Shown: positions 1-57,966 of the stretch, in pieces | Position numbering within the stretch: position 1 is the first letter of the stretch | Layout: the number at the start of each line of letters is the position of its first letter | Assembly: GCA_001805445.1 (NCBI GenBank) | Contig: MHGF01000028.1 | Coordinates: forward strand, 9,651 to 73,650 | Reading direction: 5' to 3' | Origin: Omnitrophica WOR_2 bacterium GWF2_43_52 | GTDB lineage: Bacteria > Omnitrophota > Gorgyraeia > Gygaellales > UBA12090 | DNA length: 64,000 nt | The notes under the pieces: generated by a model | The model's database searches: none | What the model saw: only the letters and a program-made list of their open reading frames with translations | Told to the model about the DNA's origin: nothing | Made by a program: the position numbers and the translations under genes

Positions 1-100
1 GCGCTCCGCCGACTTATCGTCGGCTACGCTGAGCACCCCCCAATCGTGGGGAAAATTTTTCCCCACACCCCTTTTAGTACACCGTCACACTAGTAAAAAC
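1..100. repeat. Y-family structured repeat, copy 1 (truncated by window edge)
   Basis: Shares a block with copies at 37858-38048 and 49085-49300 (gcgctc..ccgcc-hairpin-ggcgg..ctgagcaccccccaa..cgtgggg..ccccacaccc). Hairpin stems differ between copies but pairing is preserved. Confidence 0.6.
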
Positions 101-222
101 TAATTTAACGGTGTAATAGTTACATTGTATCGGTAATTTCAAGATAATCATCTACCATGTTCAAATCACAGTGTGTGCCGGTAGACGGGTTATCTCTTCA
201 ATTACCTCTCCTTATCCTTAGT

Positions 223-1914
223 TTACTGCGCTGCCGTAACCCTCACCACTTCATCGACAGTCGTTATCCCCTTTTCTGCCTTTAGCAATGCTTCCTGGCG
301 CAGGGTTTTCATCCCGGAATTACGTACCGCGTATTCCTGAATCTGCTCACTGGTTGCGCCTTTAACAACCATCTCTCGTATTATATCATCAATCATCAAA
401 ATTTCCAGTATTGCTTGTCTGCCATAATAGCCCGTATGCGCGCACGACGGACAACCTTCGCCTCTAAAAAATTGCAGATCAGGATTTAACCCAAGGTTCA
501 AAAGCAATGCGTTAGGGGGATTATCCGGTTTTTTACAGCGGCTGCAGATAACCCGCATTAAACGCTGGGCAGAGCTCATAATAACGCTTGAAGCCACTAA
601 AAAAGGTTCTAGCCCCATATCAATCAATCTCGTTATCGCCTGAGCCGCGTTATTGGTGTGCAGCGTAGACATTACAAACTGCCCGGTAAGCGCGGCCTTG
701 ATGGCGATATCAGCGGTTTCAGAATCCCGGATCTCGCCAATCAAAATAACATCGGGGCTTTGCCGCAGAATAGACCGCAGCCCCGCGGCAAAATTCATAC
801 CGATATCTGATTTTACCGGTATCTGGCTAATTCCTTCTAACTGATATTCTACAGGATCCTCAATGGTAATAATATTCCTTTCCGGGGTATTCAGTAAACT
901 TAATACCGAATAAAGGCTGGTAGATTTCCCGCTTCCCGTGGGTCCGGTAACCACAATCATTCCATAGGGCCGCGCGATTGCCTCTTTCAAAAGCGCTAAT
1001 GAGCCTGGAGAAAAACCTAAAGAGTCTAACCCTACTACTAATGATGCCCTATCCAGCACGCGCAGCACCAAGGTCTGGCCAAAACTGGTAGGAAGCAGAG
1101 AAACCCTGAAGTCAACCTCCTTATTTAAAAATTTAATTTTAAATCTTCCGTCTTGAGGGAGGCGCGCCTCGGTAATATCTAAACCGGAAATAATTTTTAT
1201 CCTGGCAGTAATGGCGTTTTCGCTTTTTTTAGGAATAGTAAAGGCATCAATAAGCTCTCCGTCAATGCGGAAACGCACCCTCAGATTATTTTCCTGAGGC
1301 TCGACATGAATATCCGATGCCCTTCGTTTAAGCGCTTCCGCAAGCATCAGATTAACGATCTTAACCACAGGGACAGCATCGCCCTGCTCCTTACTATTAT
1401 CCAATTCAAGCGTATCTTCTCCCAAAACGGTAGATGGGCTTTCCACAGATTCTTCTTGCGTAACCACAGATTCCTCTTTTTTATGGCTATAGACATTCTG
1501 AATCGCGTGCAAAATATCTTTTTCCAAGGCAAGCACGGGATCAATCCTATACCCGGTAATTATCCGTAAATCATCGAGCGCGAATATATTGAGAGGATCA
1601 AACATGGCAACGGTTAAGGTATCCCCAATACGTGAAACAGGCACCGCGGTATATTGACTGGCTAAACGCTCAGGAACAATGTCCGCAAGCGAACGATCGA
1701 TACGGTAATGAGACAGGTTTAAGGTAGGCAAATAAAGCGACTCTGATAAAGCGCTGATAAGTTTTGATTCCTCCACAAATCCTTCTTTAAGCAGTACTTC
1801 CCGTAAAGGAAGGCCTTTCTTTCTTTGAATTTCAATTGCTTCTTGCAATCGTTCCTTAGAAAGTATTTTCTGTTTTATCAACAGTTCTATAAGCTTTTCC
1901 TTAAATAATGCCAT
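223..1914 (-). CDS. Type II secretion / type IV pilus assembly ATPase (GspE/PilB family), paralog 1
   Basis: 563 aa. N-terminal T2SSE_N-like domain, Walker A 'GPTGSGKST', Asp/His boxes, C-terminal tetracysteine motif 'CSRC...CPSC'. Confidence 0.9.
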   Translation of the reverse strand: MALFKEKLIELLIKQKILSKERLQEAIEIQRKKGLPLREVLLKEGFVEESKLISALSESLYLPTLNLSHYRIDRSLADIVPERLASQYTAVPVSRIGDTLTVAMFDPLNIFALDDLRIITGYRIDPVLALEKDILHAIQNVYSHKKEESVVTQEESVESPSTVLGEDTLELDNSKEQGDAVPVVKIVNLMLAEALKRRASDIHVEPQENNLRVRFRIDGELIDAFTIPKKSENAITARIKIISGLDITEARLPQDGRFKIKFLNKEVDFRVSLLPTSFGQTLVLRVLDRASLVVGLDSLGFSPGSLALLKEAIARPYGMIVVTGPTGSGKSTSLYSVLSLLNTPERNIITIEDPVEYQLEGISQIPVKSDIGMNFAAGLRSILRQSPDVILIGEIRDSETADIAIKAALTGQFVMSTLHTNNAAQAITRLIDMGLEPFLVASSVIMSSAQRLMRVICSRCKKPDNPPNALLLNLGLNPDLQFFRGEGCPSCAHTGYYGRQAILEILMIDDIIREMVVKGATSEQIQEYAVRNSGMKTLRQEALLKAEKGITTVDEVVRVTAAQ

Positions 1915-1970
1915 TGCACACCTTCAATAACGGCGGTATCGTATCATTCCAATAGAGCTAGCCATACAAA

Positions 1971-3683
1971 TTACTCATCACTGGCAGTAACCCGGATAAT
2001 TTCCTCAAGCGAAGTAACGCCGTTTAAGGCCTTCGCAATCCCATCTTCCCGCAGCGTCTGCATTCCCTCAAGGCGCGCTTGCTGTTTTATCGTGTGTTCC
2101 TGCGCCCTCTCAAGAATAAGCTCCTTTATCCTTGGGCTTACCACAAGCACTTCCGCGACTACTGCTCTTCCTTTATATCCTGTATGATAACACTTTGGAC
2201 AGCCCTTAGGCCTAAAAAAAGTATATCCTTTCTTCTGGGGTGGAAATTTTAATCGAGCAACGATATCATCCTTGAGTATATACTGTTCCTTACACGCCGG
2301 ACAGAGAATCCTCGCCAGCCTCTGGGCTACGATACAGCTAACCGCGGAAGTAATCAAAAATGGCTCAACCCCCATATTGACCAGGCGTACAACCGCACCG
2401 CTGGCACTGGTGGTATGAATGGTAGAAAGCACCAAATGGCCGGTAAGGGCGGCTTTAACCGCAATATCGGCGGTTTCCGAATCGCGGATTTCCCCAACCA
2501 TAATCACATTAGGGTCCTGCCTGAGTATTGAACGCAGCGCTAAAGCAAAGCTCAAGCCGATTTCAGATTGGATATTGACTTGATTGATACCCGGAATCTG
2601 AAATTCTACAGGGTCTTCTACTGTAATAATATTTATTTTTGGTTTGTCTACAAGCTTTAATACCGAATATAAGGTAGTGGTTTTTCCCGCGCCTGTCGGC
2701 CCACAGGTTAAAATCATCCCATAAGGCCTGAAGGCGCATTTTTTCAGGTCTAGAAGAGCCTTTTCCTGAAACCCTAAAGTATCAATGTCTAAGTTAACCC
2801 TGGTTTTATCCAGAATGCGCAATGCTACCTTCTCCCCAAAACTTGTCGGCAAGACCGAAACGCGAAAATCAACCTCCCTCGCCGCGAATTTCATCGTAAA
2901 CCTTCCGTCTTGGGGAAGCCTGTGCTCTGAGATATCCAAGCCTGAAATAACCTTGATACGCGAAATAACCAAAGGGCTCATGCTGGTAGCACAATCAGGT
3001 TGTTCCTTAAGCATTCCGTCAATACGGAAACGTATCCTCAATCTTCTTTCCTGAGGCTCAATCAAAACATCCGAAACCTTAAGGTTCACCGCTTGTTCTA
3101 CCATCTTATTGATAAATGAAACAATGGGCGCTTCTTTAATAAGCCTCCCAAGCTCGTCAAGGGGAAGCTCAAATCCCTTCTCCTCCTGAATCAATTCTAT
3201 ATTTTCTGCCGATATCCCCTGAAGTAAGCCTTCAATTTCAGTTTTAGCGCTCTGCCCATAATATTGCTCAATAGCTTGAAGTACCCGGCGCGAATCCGCG
3301 ATAATAGGATTAATCTGATAACCGGTAAGCGTCTTTACATCATCGAGGGCGAGAATATTAAGGGGGTCAACCATAGCCAACGTCAGGGTATTGGCAAATC
3401 TTGAAATTGGCATAATCTGATACTGCCTGCAGATATTCGGGGGAATAAGGCTCAGGACTTCAGCGTCAATCGTAAAACGGGTCAAGTCAATGCTTGGCTT
3501 AGAAAATACCTTCGACATGGCGATAAGAAGTTTATCCGCGTCGATGAGTTTTTCCTTTACCAGGATATCACTTAAACTCCCCCCTTTGTCCTTCTGGATT
3601 TCTAATGCCTGCTTGAGGCTCTCCTGGGAAATAAGCTTACTTTCGGTGAGTGTTTGAATAATCCGCTCTTTGAGGGAAGGCAT
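1971..3683 (-). CDS. Type II secretion / type IV pilus assembly ATPase (GspE/PilB family), paralog 2
   Basis: 570 aa. Walker A 'GPTGAGKTT', tetracysteine 'CPAC...CPKC'. Tandem with paralog 1. Confidence 0.9.
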   Translation of the reverse strand: MPSLKERIIQTLTESKLISQESLKQALEIQKDKGGSLSDILVKEKLIDADKLLIAMSKVFSKPSIDLTRFTIDAEVLSLIPPNICRQYQIMPISRFANTLTLAMVDPLNILALDDVKTLTGYQINPIIADSRRVLQAIEQYYGQSAKTEIEGLLQGISAENIELIQEEKGFELPLDELGRLIKEAPIVSFINKMVEQAVNLKVSDVLIEPQERRLRIRFRIDGMLKEQPDCATSMSPLVISRIKVISGLDISEHRLPQDGRFTMKFAAREVDFRVSVLPTSFGEKVALRILDKTRVNLDIDTLGFQEKALLDLKKCAFRPYGMILTCGPTGAGKTTTLYSVLKLVDKPKINIITVEDPVEFQIPGINQVNIQSEIGLSFALALRSILRQDPNVIMVGEIRDSETADIAVKAALTGHLVLSTIHTTSASGAVVRLVNMGVEPFLITSAVSCIVAQRLARILCPACKEQYILKDDIVARLKFPPQKKGYTFFRPKGCPKCYHTGYKGRAVVAEVLVVSPRIKELILERAQEHTIKQQARLEGMQTLREDGIAKALNGVTSLEEIIRVTASDE

Positions 3684-3690
3684 ACTATGT

Positions 3691-3790
3691 AAAGGTTGCG
3701 TAAGGTTACGTGAGGTTGCGTAAAGTTACGTGAGGTTGCGTGAAGAAGTTACATAAGGTTACAAAGGCACCGTTACGAAACCTCACGCAA
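3691..3790. repeat. 10-bp-phased direct repeat array (aggttRcgtR x about 6) plus one inverted copy (cctcacgcaac)
   Basis: Read directly from the sequence: aggttgcgtaaggttacgtgaggttgcgtaaagttacgtgaggttgcgtgaagaagttac...cgttacgaaacctcacgcaac. Lies between the MshEN gene stop and the gspE-2 start. Confidence 0.7.
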
Positions 3791-3797
3791 CATTTCA

Positions 3798-4253
3798 CTA
3801 CTGGTTCTTGGTTTCTTTATAGTACTTTTCAATTGACTTACGGATATCAGAGGATGTAGAAACAAATGCCTGCACACTACAGTTTAACAGCGTTTCTATA
3901 TCTTCAATTGCCTGGGTGTTTAAAGGGTTGCTCATGGCTATGGTAAGATTATTCGCTATTTTATCGATGGGTATCAAACAATACTGCTGAGCTACGCGCT
4001 CGGGAATCAGTTTAATTAAATCCTGGTCAATTTCATAATTGGCTAAGGGAAGAAACGCAAACCCATATTGCGCGGTAAGCATCTTCGCGATATCTTCTTC
4101 GGTAGTAAACTTCAACTGGACTAATACTTCGCCGATCAAGCCTCCTTTATCATTCTGAAGCTCTAAAGCCTCGTCAAGCTGCGCTTGGGTAATAATACCC
4201 GCGTCCACAAGCAGTTCGCCTAATTTTTTATTAATATTCTTTTGGGGAAGCAT
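3798..4253 (-). CDS. Stand-alone MshEN (T2SSE_N) domain protein, predicted c-di-GMP receptor
   Basis: 151 aa. 'KLGELLVDAGIITQAQLDEALELQ' matches the MshEN c-di-GMP-binding motif RLGxx(L/V)(L/V)xxG(L/I)(L/I)xxxxLxxxLxxQ at every position except K for R. A second, looser copy follows. Confidence 0.75.
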   Translation of the reverse strand: MLPQKNINKKLGELLVDAGIITQAQLDEALELQNDKGGLIGEVLVQLKFTTEEDIAKMLTAQYGFAFLPLANYEIDQDLIKLIPERVAQQYCLIPIDKIANNLTIAMSNPLNTQAIEDIETLLNCSVQAFVSTSSDIRKSIEKYYKETKNQ

Positions 4254-4271
4254 CGTGTTTCTATTGTATCA

Positions 4272-5645
4272 TTACGTTTTGACCGTATCCAATGCCTTCT
4301 GCGCTGAAAGTATTAATTCCTGCGCCGTTACCCCGTCAAGCGGATTCTCCGCGACCACGGCAGATATGCTAAAGTTTCTTTGCGGATCAGGCTCTTTCTT
4401 GAAAAAACGCTCTACCTCCTGCTCCATTTCTTCAGCTATTTTCTGGGCCTGGCGCTTATTTTTTTCAGGGAAAATAACGGCAAATTGATAATCCGCGAAC
4501 CTTCCTATACGCTCATCACCGATGAAAAGATTGCCCATGCACGCCGCTGTTTTTTTCAGTATCGCCTCAGCGGCAATTAAGCCGTGGGCTTTCTGATATT
4601 CCATGAAGTTATTTATTTTTGCCAACACCAACGCGCAAGGCCGCTGGTAAAGAATTGCCCGTTTTATTTCCTCGTCAAGCCGGCTGCGGATATAATACTC
4701 GTTATAAAGGCCGGTAAGCATATCCTTGATTTCCAGTTTTTCAAGGCGTTCAACCATACAGTTATTCTCAATAGCAATCGCCATTTGCTTGCCGAATATG
4801 CTTAAGAGTTCAATGTCGTCAGCACTGTAGGTAAAGTCTAAAAGGGCGTTGCCGATTCCCAATAAGGCAACAGGCTTCTGATAAGAGAATATGGGAACGC
4901 CCAAGAAATGCTTAATCTCAAATCCGGCCAGGAACTTTTGGAAAGAATGTTTCTGATTCTTACTGTCGATAACTGTAGGTATATCTTTTTCCAGCATCTG
5001 AATTAAGCACATATTATGCTCTGAAAAGGTTGCCTTAAGCTTTGCTTCATGGGTTAGCCCCCACTGCGCCTTGAGGCTAAAAATACCTTCCTCTAAATAC
5101 AAAATAAATACCACGGAAGAATGCGCTAAATCCTTCACCTTTTCAACGCAAAGCGTTAAAACTGAATCGATCTCCCCTCCTTGAGCGACAACATCGGAAA
5201 TATGCAGGAGTGCCGAAATAAAATGTACCCGCTTCTGGATTTCTGAATTTATCTGGGCGGTTTTAGAGCCGTAATTCTTTAACTCGTCCATATTGAGCCT
5301 TATCTTTTGTGTAAGCTGATTAAGCGCCTGCCCAAGCTGGCCGATTTCATCTTCACCTTTAATATCAATGTGCTTCGGCACGCCTTGCTCTGCAATCAAG
5401 GTGGCTTCCCTGCTCAGTTTTACTACAGGGTCAAAAATCTGTTTGAGAATCGTGGCCCCGAGAATGACCAAGCCGAGCATTATCGCGATGACAATAACAA
5501 AATTCGACTTGATGCCAAAGCCTAGAAGAAAACTTGGAAAAATATAATTAAAGCAGATGAGGATAGGAATAACCGACATAAGGCATACAGCGATTATCAG
5601 CTTATACTTTATGCCTCGTGAAGATAAAGAACTGCTCTTAGCCAT
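4272..5645 (-). CDS. Membrane HAMP-GAF-GGDEF-domain protein with degenerate GGDEF motif (predicted non-catalytic)
   Basis: 457 aa. Two N-terminal TM segments, HAMP-like region, GAF-like middle, C-terminal 'DMLTGLYNEYY...GRFADYQF' instead of RxGGDEF. Confidence 0.75.
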   Translation of the reverse strand: MAKSSSLSSRGIKYKLIIAVCLMSVIPILICFNYIFPSFLLGFGIKSNFVIVIAIMLGLVILGATILKQIFDPVVKLSREATLIAEQGVPKHIDIKGEDEIGQLGQALNQLTQKIRLNMDELKNYGSKTAQINSEIQKRVHFISALLHISDVVAQGGEIDSVLTLCVEKVKDLAHSSVVFILYLEEGIFSLKAQWGLTHEAKLKATFSEHNMCLIQMLEKDIPTVIDSKNQKHSFQKFLAGFEIKHFLGVPIFSYQKPVALLGIGNALLDFTYSADDIELLSIFGKQMAIAIENNCMVERLEKLEIKDMLTGLYNEYYIRSRLDEEIKRAILYQRPCALVLAKINNFMEYQKAHGLIAAEAILKKTAACMGNLFIGDERIGRFADYQFAVIFPEKNKRQAQKIAEEMEQEVERFFKKEPDPQRNFSISAVVAENPLDGVTAQELILSAQKALDTVKT

Positions 5646-5686
5646 GGGATCCTCCTTTAGTTATCACTGAAAAAGCGTCTTTTAAA

Positions 5687-5776
5687 CACGAATTCCCACG
5701 AATTACACACTAATCATCACGAATACAGCGACGAAGTAATTCGTGTGTATTTGTGTGTAATTTGTGCCTATTCGTG
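5687..5776. promoter_or_regulatory. Dyad-symmetric candidate operator with repeated CACGAAT / ATTCGTG half-sites
   Basis: CACGAAT at 5687, 5697 and 5718; ATTCGTG at 5739 and 5770. Larger inverted repeat ccacgaattacacac / gtgtgtaatttgtg. Sits immediately upstream of the 4272-5645 gene start. Confidence 0.5.
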
Positions 5777-5894
5777 CAAAATAAAGGTTTTTCAGCAGTA
5801 ACTCCTTTAGAAACCTTAAGGGACATACGCACCCTTACCAGCCTCACCTATATGGTGGAATATACTATAACGCTATTGCTCCTACCCGTCAAGC

Positions 5895-7619
5895 TTAAGC
5901 TGTCAAAACAATATGCTGCCAGGGCAAAACCGTATCTTCTGATAGCGCCTGACAATACGATTCCATCGGCCTCTGGCATTCTTCAAAAGCCTTGCGCCAG
6001 GTATTAAACTTAAAATGTTCCGTCCACCCATCAAGCATACAGCCATCCTGATAGGCTTTTAACAAAACCTTTCCTAACCTCCTGTTGCCGCGGGATACTA
6101 CCGCTTCTAAAAGGCTCGTTTCTAAGGCATGAAAATCAAGCCGTACCGCCTTTGGCAGGCATTGAGCTTTCTTTCGTAAATAGTTCCGCTTTTCACGCAG
6201 CACATCTAAAGAATCCATGGCAACGCGTTCAAAAGCAGTATGCGGCTTGGGCACAAAAAATGATATACTCGCGTGCACCTGCCCAAGGTAAGGGGTATAT
6301 TCCTTTCTTAAAAACGATACCTGCCGGGCCAAAGCAATGAGCGCGTCTAAATCGTCATAGGTCTCATCGGGTAAACCCAGCATAAAGTATAATTTTATTG
6401 ACTGCCAACCTGCCTTATATGCCGCTCGGATTGCCGCGTAAAATTCTTCAATATCAAAATTTTTATTTATTGCCTGCCTCATTCTTTCTGAGCCGGCCTC
6501 CGGAGCGAACGTAAGGGTGGTTTTTCGCACCCTTGATAGATACTCCGTTACATTGCCAAGATATGACTTTGGCCTTAAAGAAGGCAGGGATATCGCCACT
6601 GCCTGCTCTTGCATTCTTTCACGCAGGCCGTCAAGGACTTGCCTTAAGAAAGGATACTCGCTGGTAGATAAACTTAAGAATGAAATTTCTTCGTATCCGG
6701 AGGATCGAAGTATGTTCTCTGTAATTTCAATGATTTTCTCTGGCGAGCGTATTCTAAGCTTCTGATAGACAACTCTTGCCTGGCAAAAGCTGCAGTGGTG
6801 AGGACACCCGCGCATGAGCTCAATCGCCGCCCGGTCATGGACGATTTGAATATACGGCACAAGCCATTTTTGAGGATAATACGCGTTATTGAGATCCTCT
6901 ACAATGCGCTTTGTAATTCTCTGCGGCACGCCAGGATACAAGGGTAAAAATTTCTTAACCGCCCCCTCCTCATCATAGTCTACATCATAAAAAGAAGGGA
7001 TATACACCCCTCGCACAGCTGCTATTTTCTTGAGGATATCCTCTTTTGTGATTTGTGATTTGTGATTTGCGATTTGCGATTTATATATCTCAACTATTTC
7101 TAAAAGTGCCTCCTCTGCCTCTCCAATAAAAAAGATATCTATAAAATCCGCCAATGGTTCCGGATTCGTCACGCAAGGGCCTCCCGCGATAACTAAAGGA
7201 AACGCCAATGAACGATCTTTTGACAAAAGCGGTATCCCTGCCAGATCAAGCACCGCCAAAACATTGGTATAGGCTAACTCATAATTAAGGCAAAAGCCAA
7301 GAAAATCAAACTCGCTTAAAGGAATTTTTGATTCTAAAGAAAAAAGGGGAAGCTTCTTTTCTTTTAACAGCCCCTGCATATCTACGTCTGGCAAAAAAGC
7401 TCTTTCACACGCTATCCCAGGCTCTTCATTGAGCAACCCATAGAGTATCCGCAAACCCATATTACTCATCCCGATTTCATATAAATCAGGAAAACAAAGC
7501 GCGAAAGTCACTTCTTGCGCGTCAAAATCTTTCTTGACGGCATTCCATTCGTTCCCCACATACCTTCCCGGTTTTCTTACTTGTAAAAGTATATCCTCTA
7601 TCGCTACCACTCTTTTCAT
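5895..7619 (-). CDS. B12-binding-domain radical SAM protein (TIGR03960-like, uncharacterized family)
   Basis: 574 aa. 'RKPGRYVGNEWN' N-terminal signature, CxxxCxxC 'CPHHCSFC'. Located next to rodA/mrdA/mre genes, as is typical for this family. Confidence 0.8.
   Translation of the reverse strand: MKRVVAIEDILLQVRKPGRYVGNEWNAVKKDFDAQEVTFALCFPDLYEIGMSNMGLRILYGLLNEEPGIACERAFLPDVDMQGLLKEKKLPLFSLESKIPLSEFDFLGFCLNYELAYTNVLAVLDLAGIPLLSKDRSLAFPLVIAGGPCVTNPEPLADFIDIFFIGEAEEALLEIVEIYKSQIANHKSQITKEDILKKIAAVRGVYIPSFYDVDYDEEGAVKKFLPLYPGVPQRITKRIVEDLNNAYYPQKWLVPYIQIVHDRAAIELMRGCPHHCSFCQARVVYQKLRIRSPEKIIEITENILRSSGYEEISFLSLSTSEYPFLRQVLDGLRERMQEQAVAISLPSLRPKSYLGNVTEYLSRVRKTTLTFAPEAGSERMRQAINKNFDIEEFYAAIRAAYKAGWQSIKLYFMLGLPDETYDDLDALIALARQVSFLRKEYTPYLGQVHASISFFVPKPHTAFERVAMDSLDVLREKRNYLRKKAQCLPKAVRLDFHALETSLLEAVVSRGNRRLGKVLLKAYQDGCMLDGWTEHFKFNTWRKAFEECQRPMESYCQALSEDTVLPWQHIVLTA
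7045..7079. repeat. Heptanucleotide tandem repeat (tttgtga x3, tttgcga x2) inside the radical SAM CDS
   Basis: Read directly from the sequence. Encodes 'KSQIANHKSQITK' in the protein. Confidence 0.85.
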
Positions 7620-7666
7620 TTTCTTAGAAAACCTTCTCTCCTAACCTTCAGGAATCCCTGAAAAGC

Positions 7667-8779
7667 TCAGCCCCTTGCATTGATATTCTGCACTATTCCC
7701 AGGCATAAAAAATTTACCAGCATATTCGAACCGCCATAGCTCATTAACGGAAGCGGAACACCTACAACAGGAGAAATACCCAACGTCATTGAAATATTGA
7801 TATACACCTGAATAGCCAGCATAAGGCCAATGCCAAAAGCGAATAATTTCCCGAAATTATCGTTTGCCTTCTGGGCAATTCGAAAAGATTCGAAGATAAG
7901 AACTCCATAAAGCCCTAAGAGAAAAAGCGAGCCCAGGAAACCGGTCTCTTCAGAAAAAATGCCAAAAATGAAATCAGTATGTGACTCTGGCAAAAAGTTC
8001 AACTGCCCTTGAGTCCCTGAAAGCCACCCCTTACCAAAAATCCTTCCCGAACCTATGGCTATCTTCGATTGAATAATGGTATAGCCCGCGCCCAGAGGGT
8101 CAGAATTAGGATTAAGAAAAACAAGGATTCTGTCCTTTTGGTAGTCGCGTAAGCAATGCCATAAAAAAGGGCTCAAGGCGCTACCTACCACTAAAATTAA
8201 AAGAATATAGCGCATTTTTACTCCCGAATAATACGCCATCCCTAAGAAGATAAACATAAGTAAAAGCGCTGTCCCCAAATCAGGCTGCTTTACGATAAGC
8301 CCAAAGGGGACTAAAATGATCAGAAAAGGATACACAATGCCCCGTAAAAAAGAAAGGCTGCCAATATTAAGCCGTATCTGATTGACGGCCTTTCTGCTGT
8401 AATAATGGCTTAAAACAAGAATAATCGCGATTTTGGCAAATTCCGAAGGTTGAAAGTTAAACCACCAGATCTTTATCCAACGCTGCGCGCCCAAACGCGC
8501 CGCTCCCGCCACTAAAACAAAAGACAATAATACAATGATAACCACATAAAACGGATAAATAACCGCAAGAAGCCCACGGAAAGGAATCCTGCTAAAAATA
8601 ATGAAGACTATCCACCCTAAAACAGCCCAGACTAATTGGCGAAAGAATACGGAACTTGTATCAAACGCATGCTTAGGATAGATCTCGCTGTAGAGCATCA
8701 GTAAGCTAAGGCTGACAATGACGAAGACTGCGATAGCAATCGCATGAGCCCTTATATTCATCGGTAGATAATGACGCAT
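7667..8779 (-). CDS. rodA: Rod shape-determining protein RodA (SEDS family)
   Basis: 370 aa polytopic membrane protein of the FtsW/RodA family. Directly downstream of PBP2. Confidence 0.9.
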   Translation of the reverse strand: MRHYLPMNIRAHAIAIAVFVIVSLSLLMLYSEIYPKHAFDTSSVFFRQLVWAVLGWIVFIIFSRIPFRGLLAVIYPFYVVIIVLLSFVLVAGAARLGAQRWIKIWWFNFQPSEFAKIAIILVLSHYYSRKAVNQIRLNIGSLSFLRGIVYPFLIILVPFGLIVKQPDLGTALLLMFIFLGMAYYSGVKMRYILLILVVGSALSPFLWHCLRDYQKDRILVFLNPNSDPLGAGYTIIQSKIAIGSGRIFGKGWLSGTQGQLNFLPESHTDFIFGIFSEETGFLGSLFLLGLYGVLIFESFRIAQKANDNFGKLFAFGIGLMLAIQVYINISMTLGISPVVGVPLPLMSYGGSNMLVNFLCLGIVQNINARG

Positions 8780-8812
8780 GAGATAACGATATGTTCCCTG
8801 GGTTGAACGCCT

Positions 8813-10516
8813 TTACAGCAGGTTCTCTTCCTTCATTTTATTAAAAACCTGATGTGCCAGGATTACGCAATTGATACTGGGGCCTGTATTTTCCAGAAAA
8901 AAACAAAAGGCAAACCTCGGCTTATCATACGGAAGGAAACCCGCAAACCAGCCGTGAGAGAGCTTCGTGTGCACCTGCGCGGTACCAGTCTTTCCGGCTA
9001 CCCGAAGATCCCCCCATCCGATATTGGCGGTTCCGGTCTCGGCATTCACTACATTTTTTAATCCTTCTATCACTGTCTTGAGGGTAGCGGGATCTAAGGT
9101 GAGCATAGCCGCCTCCGGAGGAATTATTTCCTGATCCGCGATTTTACGCACTACAAACGGCTTTATGTATTTCCCGCCGCTTGCGATTATCCCCATGAGC
9201 CGTGCCGCCTGAAGAGGGGTTACCAACACATCCCCTTGCCCAATGCCGAAATTAGCGGTATCGCCGTCATACCACTTTCGCAATTTCATCCTCCGGCTTA
9301 CTACCGAAGGGATATATCCCGATACTTCATGCAACAAATCGATACCCGTAGGCTTGCTTAAGCCAAATTTCAACGCGTATTCGGTTAAAGAATCCGGCCC
9401 CAGCAATAAGGCTAGGTGGTAAAAATAGACATTACAGGAATGTGTCAAGGCTTCAACCAAATTCTGGGAACCATGGGTACTCCAGCACTTGAATTCCTTT
9501 GCCCCTACCAAAAGTTTCCCCGGGCAAAAATACCTTTTATCAGGAGTTATTTTCCTCTTCTCTAAAGCCGCAATCGCTACGATAGCCTTAAATACCGAAC
9601 CGACTGGATACAGGCCAGATAATGCCCTGTTCATGAGAGGGCTATCGGGAGAACGTAAAATGCCGCTCACATATTCGGCTTGATCGGAATCGGTAAAAGC
9701 CCCGGGATAAAACCCGGGGGAACTTACCAAAGCAATAATCTTCCCGGTATCAACCTCCATAATCACTGCTGCCCCTTTTCTTCCCGCGAAGGCATCCTCA
9801 ATAATCCTTTGTATCTTTATGTCAAGGGTTACAGAAACATCCCTTCCTTCAAGAGGCTCCCTGAACCCCAAAACCTTTTGCACCCTACCCCGGTGATCCA
9901 CCTGTATCTGCGTTCCGCCTCCTATCGCTCTTAAGTCATGCTCCAGATACTCCTCCAGTCCCCCAAAGCCAACGATATCGCGCATTTTATATCCATAGTC
10001 CTTAAGCTTGGTAATTCGCCAGGTATCTATCTTGGCTACATAGCCCAGGAGATGGCTTGCGGCATCATGATAGGGATAGTAGCGCTTAGGGATGATCTGA
10101 ACGATGACTCCGGGAAGCTCAAATTTATTTTCTTCTATAAGAAAAGCTGTCTTTTTATCCACATCTTTCGCCACAACTATGGGGACAAATGAAGAAATAA
10201 AATCTTTTTTTATGGCTTTTGTTATTTTTGAGGTAGGCGTGCTTAATAGTACGGCTAATTTCGAAAGCGTTCCCGCATTCTGCCTGAATTCCTGCGGCAA
10301 GACACTAATGGCATATGAAATTCGATTGTCGACGATCAGCTCATTATGGCGATCCAAAATTTTACCTCTGACTCCCTCATGGGGAAGCAACCTGATACAA
10401 TTCTTATTGCTCACATAATAATAGAAGTTCCCCTGTATAATTTGAAAATAAAAAAGCCTGCCGATTAAAATAATAAAGAGTATCCCCGCGAGAATCCTGA
10501 CGTTACCTATACGCAT
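8813..10516 (-). CDS. mrdA: Penicillin-binding protein 2 (peptidoglycan D,D-transpeptidase MrdA)
   Basis: SxxK 'SVFK', 'SCN', 'KTGTA' motifs. ORF track start at 10573 overlaps mreD by 70 nt. Internal Met at 10516 is more likely. Confidence 0.85.
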   Translation of the reverse strand: MRIGNVRILAGILFIILIGRLFYFQIIQGNFYYYVSNKNCIRLLPHEGVRGKILDRHNELIVDNRISYAISVLPQEFRQNAGTLSKLAVLLSTPTSKITKAIKKDFISSFVPIVVAKDVDKKTAFLIEENKFELPGVIVQIIPKRYYPYHDAASHLLGYVAKIDTWRITKLKDYGYKMRDIVGFGGLEEYLEHDLRAIGGGTQIQVDHRGRVQKVLGFREPLEGRDVSVTLDIKIQRIIEDAFAGRKGAAVIMEVDTGKIIALVSSPGFYPGAFTDSDQAEYVSGILRSPDSPLMNRALSGLYPVGSVFKAIVAIAALEKRKITPDKRYFCPGKLLVGAKEFKCWSTHGSQNLVEALTHSCNVYFYHLALLLGPDSLTEYALKFGLSKPTGIDLLHEVSGYIPSVVSRRMKLRKWYDGDTANFGIGQGDVLVTPLQAARLMGIIASGGKYIKPFVVRKIADQEIIPPEAAMLTLDPATLKTVIEGLKNVVNAETGTANIGWGDLRVAGKTGTAQVHTKLSHGWFAGFLPYDKPRFAFCFFLENTGPSINCVILAHQVFNKMKEENLL

Positions 10517-11018
10517 GAAAAGGCGTGTGTTTTGCACATGGTAGTTCCAGGCGATGATACAACGCGCCGACAAGGGGTAAAAAAAGGCAATTTAAAATCG
10601 CTTCGATACAGCCGATAAAGATAAACGGCTTTTTATACATAATACTCAAGACTCCATAATTCCACACGGTAACTGCGGCTACCGCCAGGAATTGCACCCA
10701 TTTCCTATCTTTATACACGTAGCGAAACACTCCATACATCATTGCCCCATTACAGGCAAAACCAAGAGTGCTCATCCCAAAAAAAGATACGCTAAAAAAA
10801 TCTTTTAACAAACCGCAGAGAAGGCTAAAAACAATCATTTCTGAAAACACCGGCATACGCATCGCCATAATAAGCGTTGAGAGTAAAAGAAAATCAGGCG
10901 CTATTGGCAAGCCCCAGAGCGAGGGAACAACGCTTACCTGCAGAAGGCATACTCCTATGGCCAGGCCAACAAGCTTTCCATACGCACGATATTTTTTATC
11001 CGGGGAATAAAAAACCAT
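10503..11018 (-). CDS. mreD: Rod shape-determining protein MreD
   Basis: 171 aa polytopic membrane protein between mreC and mrdA. Confidence 0.75.
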   Translation of the reverse strand: MVFYSPDKKYRAYGKLVGLAIGVCLLQVSVVPSLWGLPIAPDFLLLSTLIMAMRMPVFSEMIVFSLLCGLLKDFFSVSFFGMSTLGFACNGAMMYGVFRYVYKDRKWVQFLAVAAVTVWNYGVLSIMYKKPFIFIGCIEAILNCLFLPLVGALYHRLELPCAKHTPFHAYR

Positions 11019-11024
11019 GGGCTC

Positions 11025-11792
11025 TTATTGCGTGATGATTAACACTTCTTCCACCTGCTTTAAATCGACAAAAGGTTTCACGGTTGCATACTTACCTAAT
11101 CCGTGAGACTCTTCCTGAACCATTGCAACGCTGCCCAGAGGAATAGCAGATGGGTAATTCCTGGTAAGCCCTGAGGTAACCACAATGTCCCCTACGGCTA
11201 TATCGCTATCCTTCTCAAGATATCGCATGACTATCCCGCCTAAAAGAGTTCCGCTGGCCAGCCCTTCACTCTGGCTTCGCTGCAAAGACGCGCTTACAGC
11301 GCTATTGGCATCGTTAAGTAACATCACTTTCGCGGCATGCGCCCACACCTCTACCACCCTGCCTGCCAAACCAGCCTCTGTAATTACCACATTCCCGGAT
11401 TTTACTCCCTGCTTAAAGCCTTTGTCAATCACTACCCCCCTTGACCAATTACCGCTATCCCTGGCAATTACTCGTGCTGCTATAGTAACAAACGGCGCCT
11501 GTTTCTTAAAAGAAAGAAGCCTGTTAAGGCGGTCATTCTCCGCGGCAAGCTCGTTTACCGTAATACTATTGGCGATCAGGCTTGCGATTTGTTTTTTTAG
11601 CTGCCGGTTCTCATTCTGAATAAATTTATACCCAACCATAGCCTTCGTATCAGCGATAAAGCTCGAAACAATTTTTGAAGGGAATAAGAGAACGTTGAGA
11701 ATGAGTGGTTTGAGGTAAGAAATTGAAAGGATCAATAAGGCAATAAAAATAGTGCCTGTGAAAAACGCCTTATAGGGCTTGCGGTTAAACAC
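11025..11792 (-). CDS. mreC: Rod shape-determining protein MreC
   Basis: 255 aa. N-terminal TM, coiled coil, C-terminal beta-rich domains. Sits between mreB and mreD. Confidence 0.85.
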   Translation of the reverse strand: MFNRKPYKAFFTGTIFIALLILSISYLKPLILNVLLFPSKIVSSFIADTKAMVGYKFIQNENRQLKKQIASLIANSITVNELAAENDRLNRLLSFKKQAPFVTIAARVIARDSGNWSRGVVIDKGFKQGVKSGNVVITEAGLAGRVVEVWAHAAKVMLLNDANSAVSASLQRSQSEGLASGTLLGGIVMRYLEKDSDIAVGDIVVTSGLTRNYPSAIPLGSVAMVQEESHGLGKYATVKPFVDLKQVEEVLIITQ

Positions 11793-11992
11793 ATTAACCC
11801 GGATTTTGTATTAGGTTTTGAGGAAAATGGCCTAAATCTTTGTCAGAACAAGGCTTGCGAGCAAAAGTACCACAGCCGTACTCGGTGCAGTACGGCGAGG
11901 ACACTTTTGCGAGTAAAACGCAGTTATGGCAAAGAGTTAGAGACATTTTACCAAAATCCTAATGCAAATTCCGGGTTAAGAAGGATAGCCTG

Positions 11993-13069
11993 TTATTGCT
12001 GGATTCTGGTAGGAACGGTGAGCCTCTTTAAGTAACTCTCTTCATCTAAAACCTTACCTGTGCCCCTAGCAACTGCGGTTAAAGGGTCGTCAGCAATATG
12101 CACGGGCAAGCCTGTTTCTTCAGAAAGTAGTTTATCGAGGCCTCGTAACAACGAGCCTCCCCCTGCCATCATAATTCCATGCTCAATTAAGTCTGCTGCT
12201 AATTCGGGAGGAGTCCGCTCTAAAACTATTTTAGTAGATTCCACTATCGCCCGCACGGGTTCGCGAAGCGCGTCGCGAATTTCCTCGGAAGTTATGGTAA
12301 TGGCTTTAGGAAGCCCCGCGACCAAATCCCTGCCTCTGACGTCAAGGCTCAACTCTTCATCAAGAGGATAGGCTGAACCAATTTTAATTTTAATATCTTC
12401 CGCGGTGCGTTCACCAATCATTAAATTATACGCCTTCTTGAGGTACTCTATAACCGCCTGGTCCATCTCATCGCCTCCGATACGGATTGAGCGTGAAAAA
12501 ACAATCCCCCCCAGCGAAAGAACCGCGATTTCTGTGGTTCCTCCTCCGATATCGATAATCATATTGCCCACGGGCTCCTGGATTGGCAGGCCAACCCCAA
12601 TAGCCGCGGCCTTCGGCTCCTCAATTAACACAATAGAGCCCGCGCCCGCGCGTTCCGCGGATTCCCTGACAGCCCTTTTTTCCACTTCGGTAATACCTGA
12701 AGGGATAGCAATAACGATACGCGGACGAGCCAATTTTCTATAATGCTGTGCCTTTTCAATAAAATGACGCAACATGGCCTCGGTAATCTCAAAATCCGCG
12801 ATAACTCCGTCTTTCATCGGGCGAATTGCCACGATATCCCCGGGAGTCCTTCCCAACATACGCTTGGCTTCAAGGCCTACCTTCATAACCCTGTTGGTTC
12901 CTTTTTCGACGGCGACAACTGAAGGCTCACACAAGACAATGCCTTCACCTTTTACATACACTAAGGTAGTTGCAGTGCCCAAATCGATCCCCATATCATT
13001 AGAAAAAAGCCCCAAGATATAGTTAATGCCCCGGCGTAAGGTATCCCACAATTTTCTTATTTTTCTCAT
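11993..13069 (-). CDS. mreB: Rod shape-determining protein MreB (actin homolog)
   Basis: '[17 protein letters not shown]' N-terminus, phosphate and adenosine motifs. True start may be an internal codon near 12994-13030. Confidence 0.95.
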
Positions 13070-22319: not shown

Positions 22320-22694
22320 TTAAAGCAAGGATTGTATTGCTTCAAGCAATAGCGCGGGAGGAGAATCCTTTAAAATAAATTTATCTGCGAGGCGGGCATA
22401 AAGAGAATGTTGGTATTTATGGTACGCGGTATAAATAATCACTTTGCTCTTTGGCTTTAAGCATTTTAGGCAATCAAAGACTTCGATACCGTCTTTCTCA
22501 GGCATCATCAAATCCAGCACTATAATATTCGGCTCGCTCTTTTTTAAATAAATTAAGAGCTCATAGCCGTCTTTTACCGTATCAACAGCATATTTATGTT
22601 CCATGAGAATATCCTTTAATGTCTGGCGGATATGCTCATTATCATCCACAACGACTATACGTACCTGTTTTTCAGGATTAAGCTCTTCTTTCAT
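22320..22694 (-). CDS. Stand-alone response regulator receiver (CheY-like)
   Basis: 124 aa REC domain ('VVDDNEHIR...LDLMMP..DG'). Confidence 0.85.
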   Translation of the reverse strand: MKEELNPEKQVRIVVVDDNEHIRQTLKDILMEHKYAVDTVKDGYELLIYLKKSEPNIIVLDLMMPEKDGIEVFDCLKCLKPKSKVIIYTAYHKYQHSLYARLADKFILKDSPPALLLEAIQSLL

Positions 22695-24267: not shown

Positions 24268-24286
24268 AAAACCCTTTTCTCCAATT

Positions 24287-57787: not shown

Positions 57788-57862
57788 TCATGAAAGTCGG
57801 GGAGGGCGGATTTGAACCGCCGGCCTTGTCGTCCCGAACGACACGCTCTAGCCAAGCTGAGC
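57788..57862 (-). tRNA. tRNA-Pro (anticodon CGG)
   Basis: 75 nt. Perfect 7-bp acceptor stem (CGGGGAG/CTCCCCG), D, anticodon (TGTCG/CGACA, loop TTCGGGA) and T arms (GGCGG/CCGCC, TTCAAAT). Discriminator A. CCA is not encoded. Confidence 0.9.
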
Positions 57863-57966
57863 CACTCCCCGGTCTGCTTCGCTCTACAACTTCTAAGAAA
57901 TTATGGCATGAGCTTCGCAGACCTTCTTGCTGCGAAGCCATACTCTTACAGATGGGCGGCTTCCCG

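What the first reader, a model, noticed from the sequence alone, without database searches (positions are those of the whole stretch)
223..5645. Split c-di-GMP-sensing module: stand-alone MshEN domain with a near-perfect receptor motif, next to two GspE/PilB ATPases whose own N-terminal motifs are degenerate, plus a catalytically dead GGDEF protein
The 151-aa ORF at 3798-4253 matches the published 24-residue MshEN c-di-GMP-binding motif (RLGxxLVxxGIIxxxxLxxxLxxQ) at every position but one. In both full-length ATPases the aligned segment has lost both conserved glycines (EKLIELLIKQKIL and ERIIQTLTESKLI). The gene immediately upstream encodes a membrane HAMP-GAF protein whose GGDEF motif is RFADYQF, so it is predicted to be non-catalytic and may act as a receptor or scaffold. 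This suggests c-di-GMP input is delivered in trans by a detached MshEN domain to paralogous secretion/pilus motors. I do not recognise this arrangement as a described system. No pilin, platform (GspF/PilC) or secretin genes are visible here. The window ends just past gspE-1, so they may lie beyond it.
Basis: partly seen in the sequence, partly recalled or inferred. Interest (0 to 1): 0.65.

Follow-up and report, generated by a model that had tools for sequence, protein, structure and literature searches.

The report
Detached c-di-GMP sensor beside pilus motors
In this Omnitrophota genome, and in at least 80 related species, the part of a pilus-assembly motor that normally senses the signal molecule c-di-GMP is a separate small gene next to two motor genes that have lost the sensing site. 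This arrangement of a known control system has not been described and has not been tested at the bench.

Summary
On the minus strand lie a TM-HAMP-GAF-GGDEF protein with a dead signature (4272-5645), a 151-aa complete MshEN domain (3798-4253) and two PilB-type ATPases (1971-3683, 223-1914).

The small protein keeps the residues that bind c-di-GMP. Both ATPases carry G11I and G40R/S, changes that abolish or cripple binding in V. cholerae MshE.

The small gene is real, not a frameshift fragment. The order GGDEF*-MshEN-PilB_B-PilB_A-(REC-HD-GYP)-PilC recurs in all 80 Omnitrophota species examined, including Ca. Velamenicoccus archaeovorus. Both binding glycines are kept in 80/80 stand-alone proteins and in 0/59 and at most 1/71 of the ATPases.

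A syntenic metagenomic contig encodes the stand-alone-like domain fused to a PilB_B-like ATPase.

PilC lies just beyond the window. Pilins and PilM follow in relatives, so this is a type IVa pilus cluster, not a type II secretion system.

The best reading is a split (MshEN)2-PilB: a detached c-di-GMP receptor serving pilus extension motors. The dead GGDEF protein is at most a scaffold, because it lacks an I-site.

This is a new variant of a known kind. Ligand binding and protein contacts are untested.

The parts
4272..5645 (-). GGDEF*: a 457-aa membrane protein with two N-terminal TM helices, HAMP, GAF and a degenerate GGDEF domain. The signature is ADYQF, there is no RxxD I-site, and the guanine-binding Asn and the metal-binding Asp are replaced.
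   Evidence: Pfam HAMP/GAF/GGDEF. RFADYQF at residues 382-388. Orthologs carry 31 different pentapeptides, 0/73 canonical, and RxxD in only 3/73. The gap to the next gene is 18 nt here, with a median of 11.5 nt across 76 loci.
3798..4253 (-). Stand-alone MshEN protein (151 aa). It has an N-terminal four-helix c-di-GMP-binding subdomain (two 24-residue motifs with a 5-residue spacer, NDKGG) and a C-terminal T2SSE_N1 subdomain. It is the predicted c-di-GMP receptor of the cluster.
   Evidence: PF05157 and NF053729 at 64.5 bits. Ungapped alignment to VcMshE 5HTL and to PilF GSPII domains. The AlphaFold model has pLDDT 86.6; its best PDB match is 5HTL with TM 0.75-0.81. G11, G40 and Q61 are invariant in 80/80 orthologs.
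3684..3797 (-). Intergenic spacer between the MshEN gene and PilB_B. It holds two exact tandem copies of CGCAACCTCACGTAAC and an inverted copy. It may be an mRNA stem-loop. It is specific to this species.
   Evidence: Sequence. 3 matches against 0.01 expected. RNA fold -34.7 kcal/mol, z = -3.7. The core 9-mer AACCTCACG occurs three times only in L001-L006, the same organism, and at most once, at unrelated positions, in 7 other loci.
1971..3683 (-). PilB_B: a 570-aa type IV pilus assembly ATPase. It has a degenerate MshEN N-domain (G11I, G18K, G40S, G47K, Q61V) and an intact catalytic core.
   Evidence: T2SSE 455 bits. TIGR02538 gives 632 bits, below the 675.65 cutoff. Walker A, the catalytic EDPxE, Walker B, the His box and the four Zn cysteines are conserved in 71 orthologs. 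It has no match to the relaxed c-di-GMP motif, nor do any of the 71 orthologs.
223..1914 (-). PilB_A: a 563-aa paralogous type IV pilus assembly ATPase, 45% identical to PilB_B. It has a degenerate MshEN N-domain (G11I, G18K, R38P, G40R, Q61S) and an intact catalytic core.
   Evidence: T2SSE 433 bits; TIGR02538 634 bits. Paralogy. Catalytic motifs are conserved in 59 orthologs. 0/59 match the relaxed motif. In other assemblies of the same organism it is followed directly by PilC (L003, L006).

Best explanation
The four genes are the regulatory and motor end of a type IVa pilus cluster that is conserved across Omnitrophota. The 151-aa protein is a complete MshEN domain. It works as the detached c-di-GMP-sensing N-terminal module of the pilus extension motor, in effect a split (MshEN)2-PilB.

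**Proposed mechanism**
- The small protein binds one c-di-GMP in its four-helix bundle.
- Through its T2SSE_N1 subdomain, or by pairing with the ATPases' own non-binding MshEN domains, it associates with PilB_B and possibly PilB_A.
- This makes pilus extension depend on c-di-GMP.
- The membrane HAMP-GAF-GGDEF* protein, whose gene is tightly coupled to the MshEN gene, is a non-catalytic partner that localises the small protein or conditions it on another signal.
- In most relatives a REC-HD-GYP phosphodiesterase in the same cluster sets the local c-di-GMP level.

**Shown**
- The gene is real and conserved.
- The fold and the binding residues are present in the small protein.
- The binding residues are absent from both ATPases.
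- Synteny is conserved.
- A fused form exists.

**Inferred**
- c-di-GMP binding.
- The physical partners.
- The direction of the effect.
For: 1. **Fold and site.** NF053729 gives 64.5 bits against a cutoff of 38. The model has pLDDT 86.6 and best matches the MshE-c-di-GMP structure 5HTL. G11, G40 and Q61 are kept in 80/80 orthologs, Q32 in 77/80, and the Leu/Ile triads are conserved.
2. **The non-Arg first positions are not defects.** K10 and L39 are the same residues as K167 and L196 of T. thermophilus PilF GSPII-B, which binds c-di-GMP at 6 nM. Changing them to Arg lowers its affinity (PMC11731258).
3. **Both ATPases carry disabling substitutions.** In VcMshE, G11L gives no detectable binding, G40I reduces binding 72-fold and Q61A 12-fold (supplement of PMC5013675). 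Gly at position 11 occurs in 0/59 PilB_A and 0/71 PilB_B orthologs. Gly at position 40 occurs in 0/59 and 1/71. None matches even a core version of the published relaxed motif.
4. **Synteny.** GGDEF*>MshEN>PilB_B>PilB_A>(REC-HD-GYP)>PilC is found in all 80 best species loci, including Ca. V. archaeovorus LiM. Intergenic gaps are short. Relatives at 38-41% identity still sit directly upstream of PilB genes with degenerate motifs.
5. **Fused form.** P0136 (765 aa) consists of three parts: a domain 41% identical to the stand-alone protein (133 bits, against 76 bits to the PilB N-domains), a degenerate MshEN, and an ATPase closest to PilB_B (52%). It is followed by a PilB_A-like gene (48%) and PilC.
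6. **Other c-di-GMP genes.** The REC-HD-GYP gene in the cluster has intact HD and GYP motifs in about 50 relatives. The window itself encodes a REC-GGDEF(GGEEF, RxxD)-HD-GYP protein next to a PilJ-type histidine kinase.
7. **Pilus context.** Pilins and PilM follow PilC in L064 and L042.
Against: - No binding or interaction data exist.
- A good motif is not sufficient. PilF GSPII-A stays a non-binder even after the consensus is restored, because of an N-cap helix and inter-subdomain contacts (PMC12002112).
- In this organism motif II has G47K and T at position 12. Most orthologs have Q, which is outside the published [RKPN] set, at position 1 of motif I.
- This lineage has lost the in-cluster REC-HD-GYP gene and has the most degraded GGDEF signature. 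The module could therefore be relaxing here.
- The fused protein comes from one unclassified contig. Its first domain has L10T and a 4-residue insertion.
- Gene adjacency alone cannot distinguish an activator from an inhibitor.
Confidence: 0.6

Rival explanations
1. c-di-GMP-gated decoy or selector. The small protein does not activate the motors. Its T2SSE_N1 subdomain competes with the ATPases' own N1 domains for the docking site on the platform (PilM/PilC). c-di-GMP would then block extension, or decide which of the two PilB paralogs engages.
For: - The C-terminal subdomain is the N1 fold that binds GspL in T2SS structures 2BH1 and 4PHT, which appear among the fold matches.
- It is highly conserved, with an invariant AMSNPLN block.
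- Both paralogs are catalytically intact in all orthologs, so something has to arbitrate between them.
- In A. baylyi two extension ATPases contribute independently, and small inhibitor proteins of PilB are known, such as CpiA and PlzR.
Against: - A syntenic form exists in which the domain is covalently attached to PilB_B. This fits a cis-like accessory domain better than a competitor.
- In characterised MshEN ATPases c-di-GMP promotes extension.
Confidence: 0.15
2. Nucleotide-independent structural subunit. The small protein is simply a detached extra N-terminal tier of the PilB_B hexamer, produced by gene fission. It no longer responds to c-di-GMP.
For: - Motif conformity does not guarantee binding.
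- Arg is missing at both motif-first positions.
- Multi-MshEN PilBs include non-binding domains, such as PilF GSPII-A.
Against: - All ligand-contacting positions are conserved in 80 of 80 species, while the same positions drift freely in both ATPase N-domains. This is hard to explain without selection for the ligand site.
- K and L at the first positions match the 6 nM binder GSPII-B.
- c-di-GMP turnover genes lie in the cluster.
Confidence: 0.1
3. The real partner is GGDEF*, not the motors. The membrane HAMP-GAF-GGDEF* protein and the MshEN protein form a two-protein c-di-GMP sensor whose output lies elsewhere, for example cell-envelope growth, given the upstream mreBCD-pbp2-rodA genes. Adjacency to pilB would be incidental.
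For: - The tightest gene coupling is GGDEF*>MshEN, with a median gap of 11.5 nt and overlapping stop and start codons in several loci.
- The whole block sits directly downstream of rodA in 80 loci.
Against: - In the most distant relatives the GGDEF* gene is missing (L087) or reduced to a GAF-only protein (L088), while MshEN>PilB adjacency persists.
- The fused form joins the domain to PilB_B, not to GGDEF*.
Confidence: 0.07
4. Artefact: 3798-4253 is a frameshifted or truncated remnant of a third ATPase gene.
For: The protein resembles PilB N-termini, with 30-33% identity to the neighbouring ATPases.
Against: - The protein has the same length (146-152 aa) and a conserved stop in 80 species and in thousands of database entries.
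- Only 114 nt separate it from a complete PilB gene that has its own N-domain.
- No ATPase-like ORF fragments are present.
Confidence: 0.01

Closest known systems
MshE-type ATPases (V. cholerae MshE, M. xanthus PilB, C. perfringens PilB2): MshEN fused to the T2SSE ATPase, sensing c-di-GMP in cis
   Same: The receptor domain is the same: two 24-residue motifs, a four-helix bundle and an N1 subdomain. The motor class is the same and so is the pilus context.
   Different: Here the ligand-competent MshEN is a separate polypeptide. The MshEN domains that remain on the two ATPases have lost G11 and G40.
Multi-MshEN PilBs, e.g. T. thermophilus PilF ((MshEN)3-T2SSE; GSPII-A does not bind, GSPII-B binds at 6 nM, GSPII-C at about 460 nM)
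   Same: Binding and non-binding MshEN domains both serve one motor. The stand-alone protein has K and L at the motif-first positions, as GSPII-B does. A fused (MshEN)2-PilB_B-like protein exists in a syntenic locus (P0136).
   Different: The sensing domain is encoded by its own gene, and this is conserved across a phylum. It is accompanied by a second PilB paralog and a dead GGDEF protein.
FimX-PilZ-PilB (Xanthomonas citri) and FimX-PilB (P. aeruginosa)
   Same: A PilB whose own N-domain cannot bind c-di-GMP receives the signal from a separate receptor protein. A degenerate GGDEF domain is part of the module. The X. citri PilB N-domain (7LKM/7LKO) is a structural match of the model.
   Different: The receptor here is an MshEN domain, not a degenerate EAL domain. 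No PilZ or EAL is in the cluster. The GGDEF* protein is membrane-bound with HAMP and GAF.
P. aeruginosa PA3740 (MshEN_N + divergent T2SSE_N1; a small non-ATPase c-di-GMP binder linked to swarming)
   Same: An MshEN protein without an ATPase domain, listed in Wang et al. 2016 Supplementary Table 4.
   Different: PA3740 has a highly diverged N1 subdomain, and the sources read here do not place it next to pilB genes. The Omnitrophota protein has a canonical N1 and fixed synteny with two PilBs.
PelD (TM-GAF-degenerate GGDEF c-di-GMP receptor)
   Same: The GGDEF* protein shares the overall architecture: a membrane anchor, GAF and an inactive GGDEF domain.
   Different: PelD binds c-di-GMP at an RxxD I-site (from my own knowledge). 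The protein here lacks one: IGDE in the window and (S/T)E(I/V)D in most orthologs. It also has a HAMP domain.
Acinetobacter baylyi PilB/TfpB
   Same: Two distinct extension-type ATPases serve one pilus system.
   Different: TfpB is not the same paralog: NF053534 scores 422-424 bits against a cutoff of 850. The two Omnitrophota genes are adjacent and 45% identical.

Membership tests
MshEN c-di-GMP receptor domain (Wang et al. 2016) | Two-subdomain fold: a four-helix MshEN_N bundle plus T2SSE_N1 | tested here: met
   PF05157 72 bits and NF053729 64.5 bits. AlphaFold model pLDDT 86.6; best PDB hit 5HTL with TM 0.75-0.81.
MshEN c-di-GMP receptor domain (Wang et al. 2016) | Two tandem 24-residue motifs separated by 5 residues, with Gly at motif position 3 in both (G11, G40) | tested here: met
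   Residues 10-33 and 39-62 with spacer NDKGG. G12 and G41 are present and invariant in 80/80 orthologs.
MshEN c-di-GMP receptor domain (Wang et al. 2016) | Hydrophobic triads (L10/L54/L58 and L39/L25/L29) and terminal Gln (Q32, Q61) | tested here: met
   L11, L26, L30, I40, I55, L59, Q33 and Q62 are all conserved in at least 74/80 orthologs.
MshEN c-di-GMP receptor domain (Wang et al. 2016) | Arg (relaxed motif: R/K/P/N) at motif position 1 | tested here: inconclusive
   Motif I has K here but Q in 63/80 orthologs. Motif II has L in 80/80. K and L are the residues of the 6 nM binder PilF GSPII-B, so this is probably not disabling.
MshEN c-di-GMP receptor domain (Wang et al. 2016) | Measured binding of c-di-GMP | not testable with these tools
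   Needs ITC, DRaCALA or DSF on purified protein.
c-di-GMP-binding MshEN, applied to the N-domains of PilB_A and PilB_B | Gly at motif position 3 of both motifs, and a match to the published relaxed motif | tested here: not met
   PilB_A has G11I and G40R; PilB_B has G11I and G40S. 0/59 and 0/71 orthologs match the relaxed or core motif. In MshE, G11L abolishes binding and G40I reduces it 72-fold.
Type IVa pilus assembly ATPase PilB (TIGR02538) | Score above the curated equivalog cutoff | tested here: not met
   634.2 and 632.2 bits against a cutoff of 675.65. These are still the best-scoring models, ahead of GspE at 574 and 571 bits against 630.
Type IVa pilus assembly ATPase PilB (TIGR02538) | Walker A, catalytic Glu (EDPxE), Walker B (GEIRD), His box and tetracysteine Zn site | tested here: met
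   All are present in both proteins and conserved in 59 and 71 orthologs.
Type IVa pilus assembly ATPase PilB (TIGR02538) | Encoded with PilC, pilins and PilM | tested here: met
   PilC (T2SSF) directly follows in L003 and L006, which are the same organism. N_methyl pilins and PilM follow in L064 and L042.
Diguanylate cyclase (GGDEF domain enzyme) | GG(D/E)EF active-site signature | tested here: not met
   ADYQF in the window; 0/73 orthologs are canonical.
Diguanylate cyclase (GGDEF domain enzyme) | Metal-binding Asp and guanine-binding Asn/Asp upstream of the signature | tested here: not met
   By register with the canonical DxD...ND...GD pattern (positions from my own knowledge of PleD), the window has K343/N345, Q351 and E360. 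Orthologs vary at these positions.
Degenerate-GGDEF c-di-GMP receptors (PelD / PopA type) | RxxD I-site five residues upstream of the signature | tested here: not met
   IGDE in the window. RxxD occurs in only 3/73 orthologs: L046, L064 and L073.
FimX-PilZ-PilB regulatory complex | A c-di-GMP-binding degenerate EAL domain and a PilZ adaptor | tested here: not met
   No EAL or PilZ domain is found in the four proteins or in the conserved cluster.

The most novel reading that the evidence does not exclude
The detached MshEN protein is a new class of PilB cofactor: a diffusible c-di-GMP-loaded subunit held at the membrane by the dead-GGDEF HAMP-GAF protein. It decides which of two catalytically active PilB paralogs docks on the PilC/PilM platform. 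In these ultra-small, probably predatory or parasitic bacteria, one pilus machine could then switch between two modes of operation, for example attachment versus another pilus function, in response to a locally controlled c-di-GMP pool.
Probability: 0.2. Interest if true: 0.7.

Novelty: new variant of a known kind. Interest (0 to 1): 0.52.

Why it matters
Type IVa pili are nearly universal in Omnitrophota, are expressed by the one cultivated member, and are thought to mediate attachment to hosts or prey (PMC10066038). None of the Omnitrophota papers I could search says how they are regulated.

This cluster gives a concrete, phylum-wide candidate: a c-di-GMP module made of a detached receptor, a dead cyclase-like membrane protein and, in most species, an HD-GYP phosphodiesterase.

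For the c-di-GMP field it offers a natural experiment. The MshEN domain is separated from its motor, so one can ask directly what the domain does to PilB. The 2024 PilB review calls the role of this domain in extension poorly understood (PMC11656802).

It also adds a third route, besides cis-MshEN and FimX/PilZ, by which the signal could reach a PilB that cannot bind it.

Tried and rejected
- **Frameshift or pseudogene.** I looked for ATPase remnants between 3684 and 3797 and compared gene lengths in 80 species. Rejected.
- **c-di-GMP riboswitch or other known RNA in the cluster.** The Rfam gathering scan of the whole window found only an FMN riboswitch and a tRNA, both far away.
- **Promoters and terminators in 1-8000.** Counts were not above shuffled expectation: 19 against 15.0 +/- 4.0 and 9 against 7.8 +/- 3.1. 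The only suggestive site is a 10/12 promoter-like match at 5892-5864 in the gap between the radical SAM gene and GGDEF*. No terminator-like site lies between the four genes.
- **GGDEF* as a c-di-GMP receptor through an I-site, or as a PelD relative.** The I-site is absent. The best PDB sequence matches are ordinary GGDEF domains, including that of FimX. This shows generic GGDEF similarity only.
- **Recent duplication of a neighbouring PilB N-terminus.** The stand-alone protein is only 30-33% identical to either N-domain, so the split is ancient.
- **Stand-alone homologs outside Omnitrophota.** Every named member I looked up was Omnitrophota. However, the 50%-identity representative library carries no taxonomy, so a wider distribution cannot be excluded.
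- **Complex prediction.** Modelling the small protein with PilB, GGDEF* or PilM was not possible, because only monomer prediction is offered.


Full report
**What is there**

All genes in the first 13 kb of the window are on the minus strand. In the direction of transcription they are:
- mreB-mreC-mreD-pbp2-rodA
- a TIGR03960 radical SAM gene (5895-7619)
- a 457-aa protein (4272-5645)
- a 151-aa protein (3798-4253)
- a 570-aa protein (1971-3683, here PilB_B)
- a 563-aa protein (223-1914, here PilB_A)

Pfam and NCBIfam give HAMP + GAF + GGDEF for the 457-aa protein, MshEN only for the 151-aa protein, and MshEN + T2SSE for the other two. The window belongs to an Omnitrophota bacterium. The identical 151-aa protein is encoded on MHHL01000040.1 and DMEX01000154.1, and all named relatives are Candidatus Omnitrophota.

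**Check of the observation**

Motif I of the 151-aa protein (KLGELLVDAGIITQAQLDEALELQ, residues 10-33) differs from the published 24-residue motif only by R to K at position 1. It is the only match in the window to the relaxed motif of Wang et al. 2016; shuffled ORFs give 0.11 matches.

The receptor site needs two such motifs. Motif II (residues 39-62) is less perfect here, with R38L, G47K and T at position 12. It keeps G40, the hydrophobic residues and Q61.

In ungapped register with V. cholerae MshE (5HTL), the two ATPases carry these changes:
- PilB_A: G11I, G18K, R38P, G40R, Q61S
- PilB_B: G11I, G18K, R38S, G40S, G47K, Q61V

In MshE, G11L abolishes detectable binding, G40I lowers it 72-fold and Q61A 12-fold (supplement of PMC5013675). 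The GGDEF signature of the 457-aa protein reads ADYQF within RFADYQF at residues 382-388.

**The small gene is real**

- It has 3673 relatives in the 90%-clustered database. The best 120 are 131-153 aa or 204-221 aa long; the longer ones carry an extra MshEN_N copy.
- A scan of one genome per species found at least 529 relatives. The 80 best are all from genomes labelled Omnitrophota or loosely labelled MAGs.
- In all 80 loci the gene is 146-168 aa by longest ORF.
- An AlphaFold model built on 24 homologs has mean pLDDT 86.6. Its best PDB match is the MshE-c-di-GMP complex (TM 0.75-0.81), followed by the PilF GSPII domains and the X. citri PilB N-domain.
- Only 114 nt separate its stop from the start of PilB_B, which has its own N-domain.

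The frameshift reading is excluded.

**Conserved division of labour**

I called ORFs in the 80 loci, assigned them by phmmer to the window proteins, and aligned each group.

| Position | Stand-alone protein | PilB_A | PilB_B |
|---|---|---|---|
| G11 | G in 80/80 | G in 0/59 (I, V, T) | G in 0/71 (T, I) |
| G40 | G in 80/80 | G in 0/59 (R, K) | G in 1/71 (S in 68) |
| Q61 | Q in 80/80 | Q in 35/59 | G in 58/71 |
| Q32 | Q in 77/80 | Q in 55/59 | Q in 71/71 |
| G18 | G in 67/80 | G in 10/59 | G in 1/71 |
| G47 | G in 72/80 (the window's K is the minority state) | G in 43/59 | G in 5/71 |

With the published relaxed motif, ignoring position 1, 74/80 stand-alone proteins have at least one match and 56/80 have two. 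With a core version, 78/80 have two matches. None of the 130 ATPase orthologs has any match.

Position 1 is Q in most stand-alone orthologs and K here. Position 1 of motif II is L in all 80. T. thermophilus PilF GSPII-B, which binds c-di-GMP at 6 nM, has exactly K and L at these positions, and Arg substitutions weaken it (PMC11731258). Both ATPases keep Walker A, EDPxE, Walker B, the His box and the four Zn cysteines in every ortholog, so both are active motors. They are 45% identical to each other.

**Context**

- The order rodA > rSAM > GGDEF* > MshEN > PilB_B > PilB_A is present in every locus long enough to show it, including Ca. Velamenicoccus archaeovorus LiM (L064).
- PilC follows. In other assemblies of the window's organism it starts about 300 nt after PilB_A, just beyond coordinate 1, and is followed by uvrD (L003, L006).
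- In about 49 of about 58 loci that reach PilC, a REC-HD-GYP gene lies between PilB_A and PilC. Its HDxGK, HHE and GxGYP motifs are intact in 51-53 of 54.
- That gene is missing from this position in the window's lineage (L003, L006, L007, L010).
- N-methyl pilins and PilM follow PilC in L064 and L042. This is therefore a type IVa pilus cluster. NCBIfam ranks PilB above GspE for both ATPases, although both fall below the equivalog cutoff.
- Median intergenic gaps are 11.5 nt (GGDEF* to MshEN), 49 nt (MshEN to PilB_B) and 12 nt (PilB_B to PilB_A).
- Stand-alone homologs at only 38-41% identity, also Omnitrophota, still sit directly upstream of PilB genes with degenerate motifs. There the GGDEF* gene is absent (L087) or reduced to a GAF-only membrane protein followed by a PilT-like ATPase (L088).

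The MshEN-PilB link is thus the oldest one.

**A fused form**

Among 50%-identity representatives, many proteins carry two or more MshEN domains ahead of a T2SSE core. One of them, P0136 (765 aa), has three parts:
- a first domain most similar to the stand-alone protein (41% identity; 133 bits against 76 bits to the PilB N-domains)
- a second MshEN domain most similar to the PilB N-domains, with G11I, G18N and G40L
- an ATPase closest to PilB_B (52% against 46%)

On its contig (L090, GC 62.5%, taxon unknown) it is followed by a PilB_A-like gene (48% against 43%) and PilC. So the pair 'stand-alone MshEN + PilB_B' corresponds to a single (MshEN)2-T2SSE protein in a syntenic locus.

Its first domain keeps all four glycines and both glutamines, but has L10T and a 4-residue insertion. 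I use it as evidence of architecture, not of binding.

**The GGDEF protein**

- No ortholog has GG[DE]EF. There are 31 different pentapeptides; GDDEF and GDNEF are the commonest. The window's ADYQF is among the most degraded.
- The I-site position reads (S/T)E(I/V)D. It is RxxD in only 3 of 73, one of them V. archaeovorus.
- The positions that align with the guanine-binding Asn and the metal-binding Asp are also replaced. This alignment is my own, based on the canonical GGDEF pattern.

The protein is therefore a conserved pseudo-enzyme. A receptor role through the usual site is unlikely. A scaffold or sensory role, through HAMP and GAF, is plausible given the tight gene coupling, but it is inference.

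**Can the organism make the signal?**

The window encodes a REC-GGDEF-HD-GYP protein (22678-24267) with GGEEF and a canonical RxxD (RVND-x5-GGEEF) and an HD-GYP domain that reads GYT. It lies next to a histidine kinase with a PilJ-type sensor domain (24287-26134) and a single REC protein (22320-22694). Its link to the pilus cluster is only a guess.

**Mechanism**

The best-supported reading is a split multi-MshEN PilB. The small protein binds c-di-GMP and acts on the motor as a detachable N-terminal module, most likely of PilB_B.

Precedents:
- cis-acting MshEN in MshE and M. xanthus PilB
- mixed binding and non-binding GSPII domains in PilF
- trans delivery of the signal to a non-binding PilB N-domain by FimX-PilZ (7LKM)

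Whether it activates, inhibits or selects between the two paralogs cannot be decided from sequence.

Caveats:
- Motif conformity is not sufficient for binding, as PilF GSPII-A shows.
- The window's lineage has lost the in-cluster HD-GYP and has the weakest motif II and GGDEF signature, so the module may be relaxing here.

**Novelty**

- Wang et al. list many MshEN architectures, including PA3740 and (MshEN_N)2 proteins, but not this one.
- The 2024 review of PilB cofactors lists PilZ, FimX, CpiA and others, but no MshEN-only protein.
- Omnitrophota papers report near-universal T4aP clusters without mentioning c-di-GMP.
- A search for 'MshEN' since 2021 found no such study.

The library is incomplete, so this is 'not found', not 'does not exist'. 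I rate it a new variant of a known kind. It is of moderate interest, raised by the phylum-wide conservation and by the natural separation of sensor and motor.

Noticed in passing
window 22320-26134 (minus strand): A three-gene signalling unit: a histidine kinase with a PilJ-type N-terminal sensor domain, PAS, HisKA and HATPase (24287-26134); a REC-GGDEF-HD-GYP protein with intact GGEEF, a canonical RxxD I-site and an HD-GYP domain reading GYT (22678-24267); and a single-domain REC protein (22320-22694). It is a likely source and sink of c-di-GMP in this organism.
   Followed up: partly
L064 14211-15383; same position in about 49 other loci: In most related Omnitrophota a REC-HD-GYP phosphodiesterase gene with intact HD and GYP motifs lies between PilB_A and PilC. 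It is absent from that position in the window's lineage (L003, L006, L007, L010).
   Followed up: partly
window 3684-3797: The spacer between the MshEN gene and PilB_B holds two exact tandem copies of CGCAACCTCACGTAAC 20 nt apart, a partial third copy, and an inverted copy upstream. The predicted RNA structure has z = -3.7. Apart from the window itself, three copies of the core 9-mer occur only in L001-L006, other assemblies of the same organism. Function unknown.
   Followed up: partly
P0072, P0083, P0088, P0090, P0092, P0097 (212-221 aa): A subfamily of the stand-alone protein carries an additional complete MshEN_N four-helix module at the N-terminus, giving (MshEN_N)2-N1. These could bind two c-di-GMP molecules. 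Their gene context was not examined.
   Followed up: no
P0166 (454 aa, JGI metagenome): An MshEN domain 45% identical to the window protein is fused to a DnaA-like AAA+ module, and the source annotates it as DnaA. If real, it would link c-di-GMP to replication initiation.
   Followed up: no
L088 6817-7884, L089 2319-3386, L078: In some deeper-branching relatives a PilT-like ATPase of 355-361 aa (T2SSE only, no MshEN) sits between the GAF or GGDEF* gene and the stand-alone MshEN gene. In L088 the upstream protein is GAF-only, without a GGDEF domain.
   Followed up: no
L030 (CAYPRG010000019.1): PilB_B and PilB_A appear as one 1173-aa ORF. This is either a real fusion of the two paralogs or an assembly or sequencing error.
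   Followed up: no
window 5895-13069 and all 80 loci: The pilus and c-di-GMP block always lies directly downstream of mreB-mreC-mreD-pbp2-rodA and a TIGR03960 B12-binding radical SAM gene. It is unclear whether this linkage to the cell-shape genes has a functional meaning.
   Followed up: no
window 63350-63464 and 57797-57871 (minus strand): An FMN riboswitch (73.1 bits; gathering threshold 66.2) and one tRNA gene. These are the only Rfam matches in the window.
   Followed up: no
L064 (V. archaeovorus), L046, L073: Three GGDEF* orthologs, unlike the other 70, have an RxxD (REID) at the I-site position together with very degraded signatures (EDGVF, EEGVF, TENGF). In these lineages the dead GGDEF domain might bind c-di-GMP itself.
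   Followed up: no
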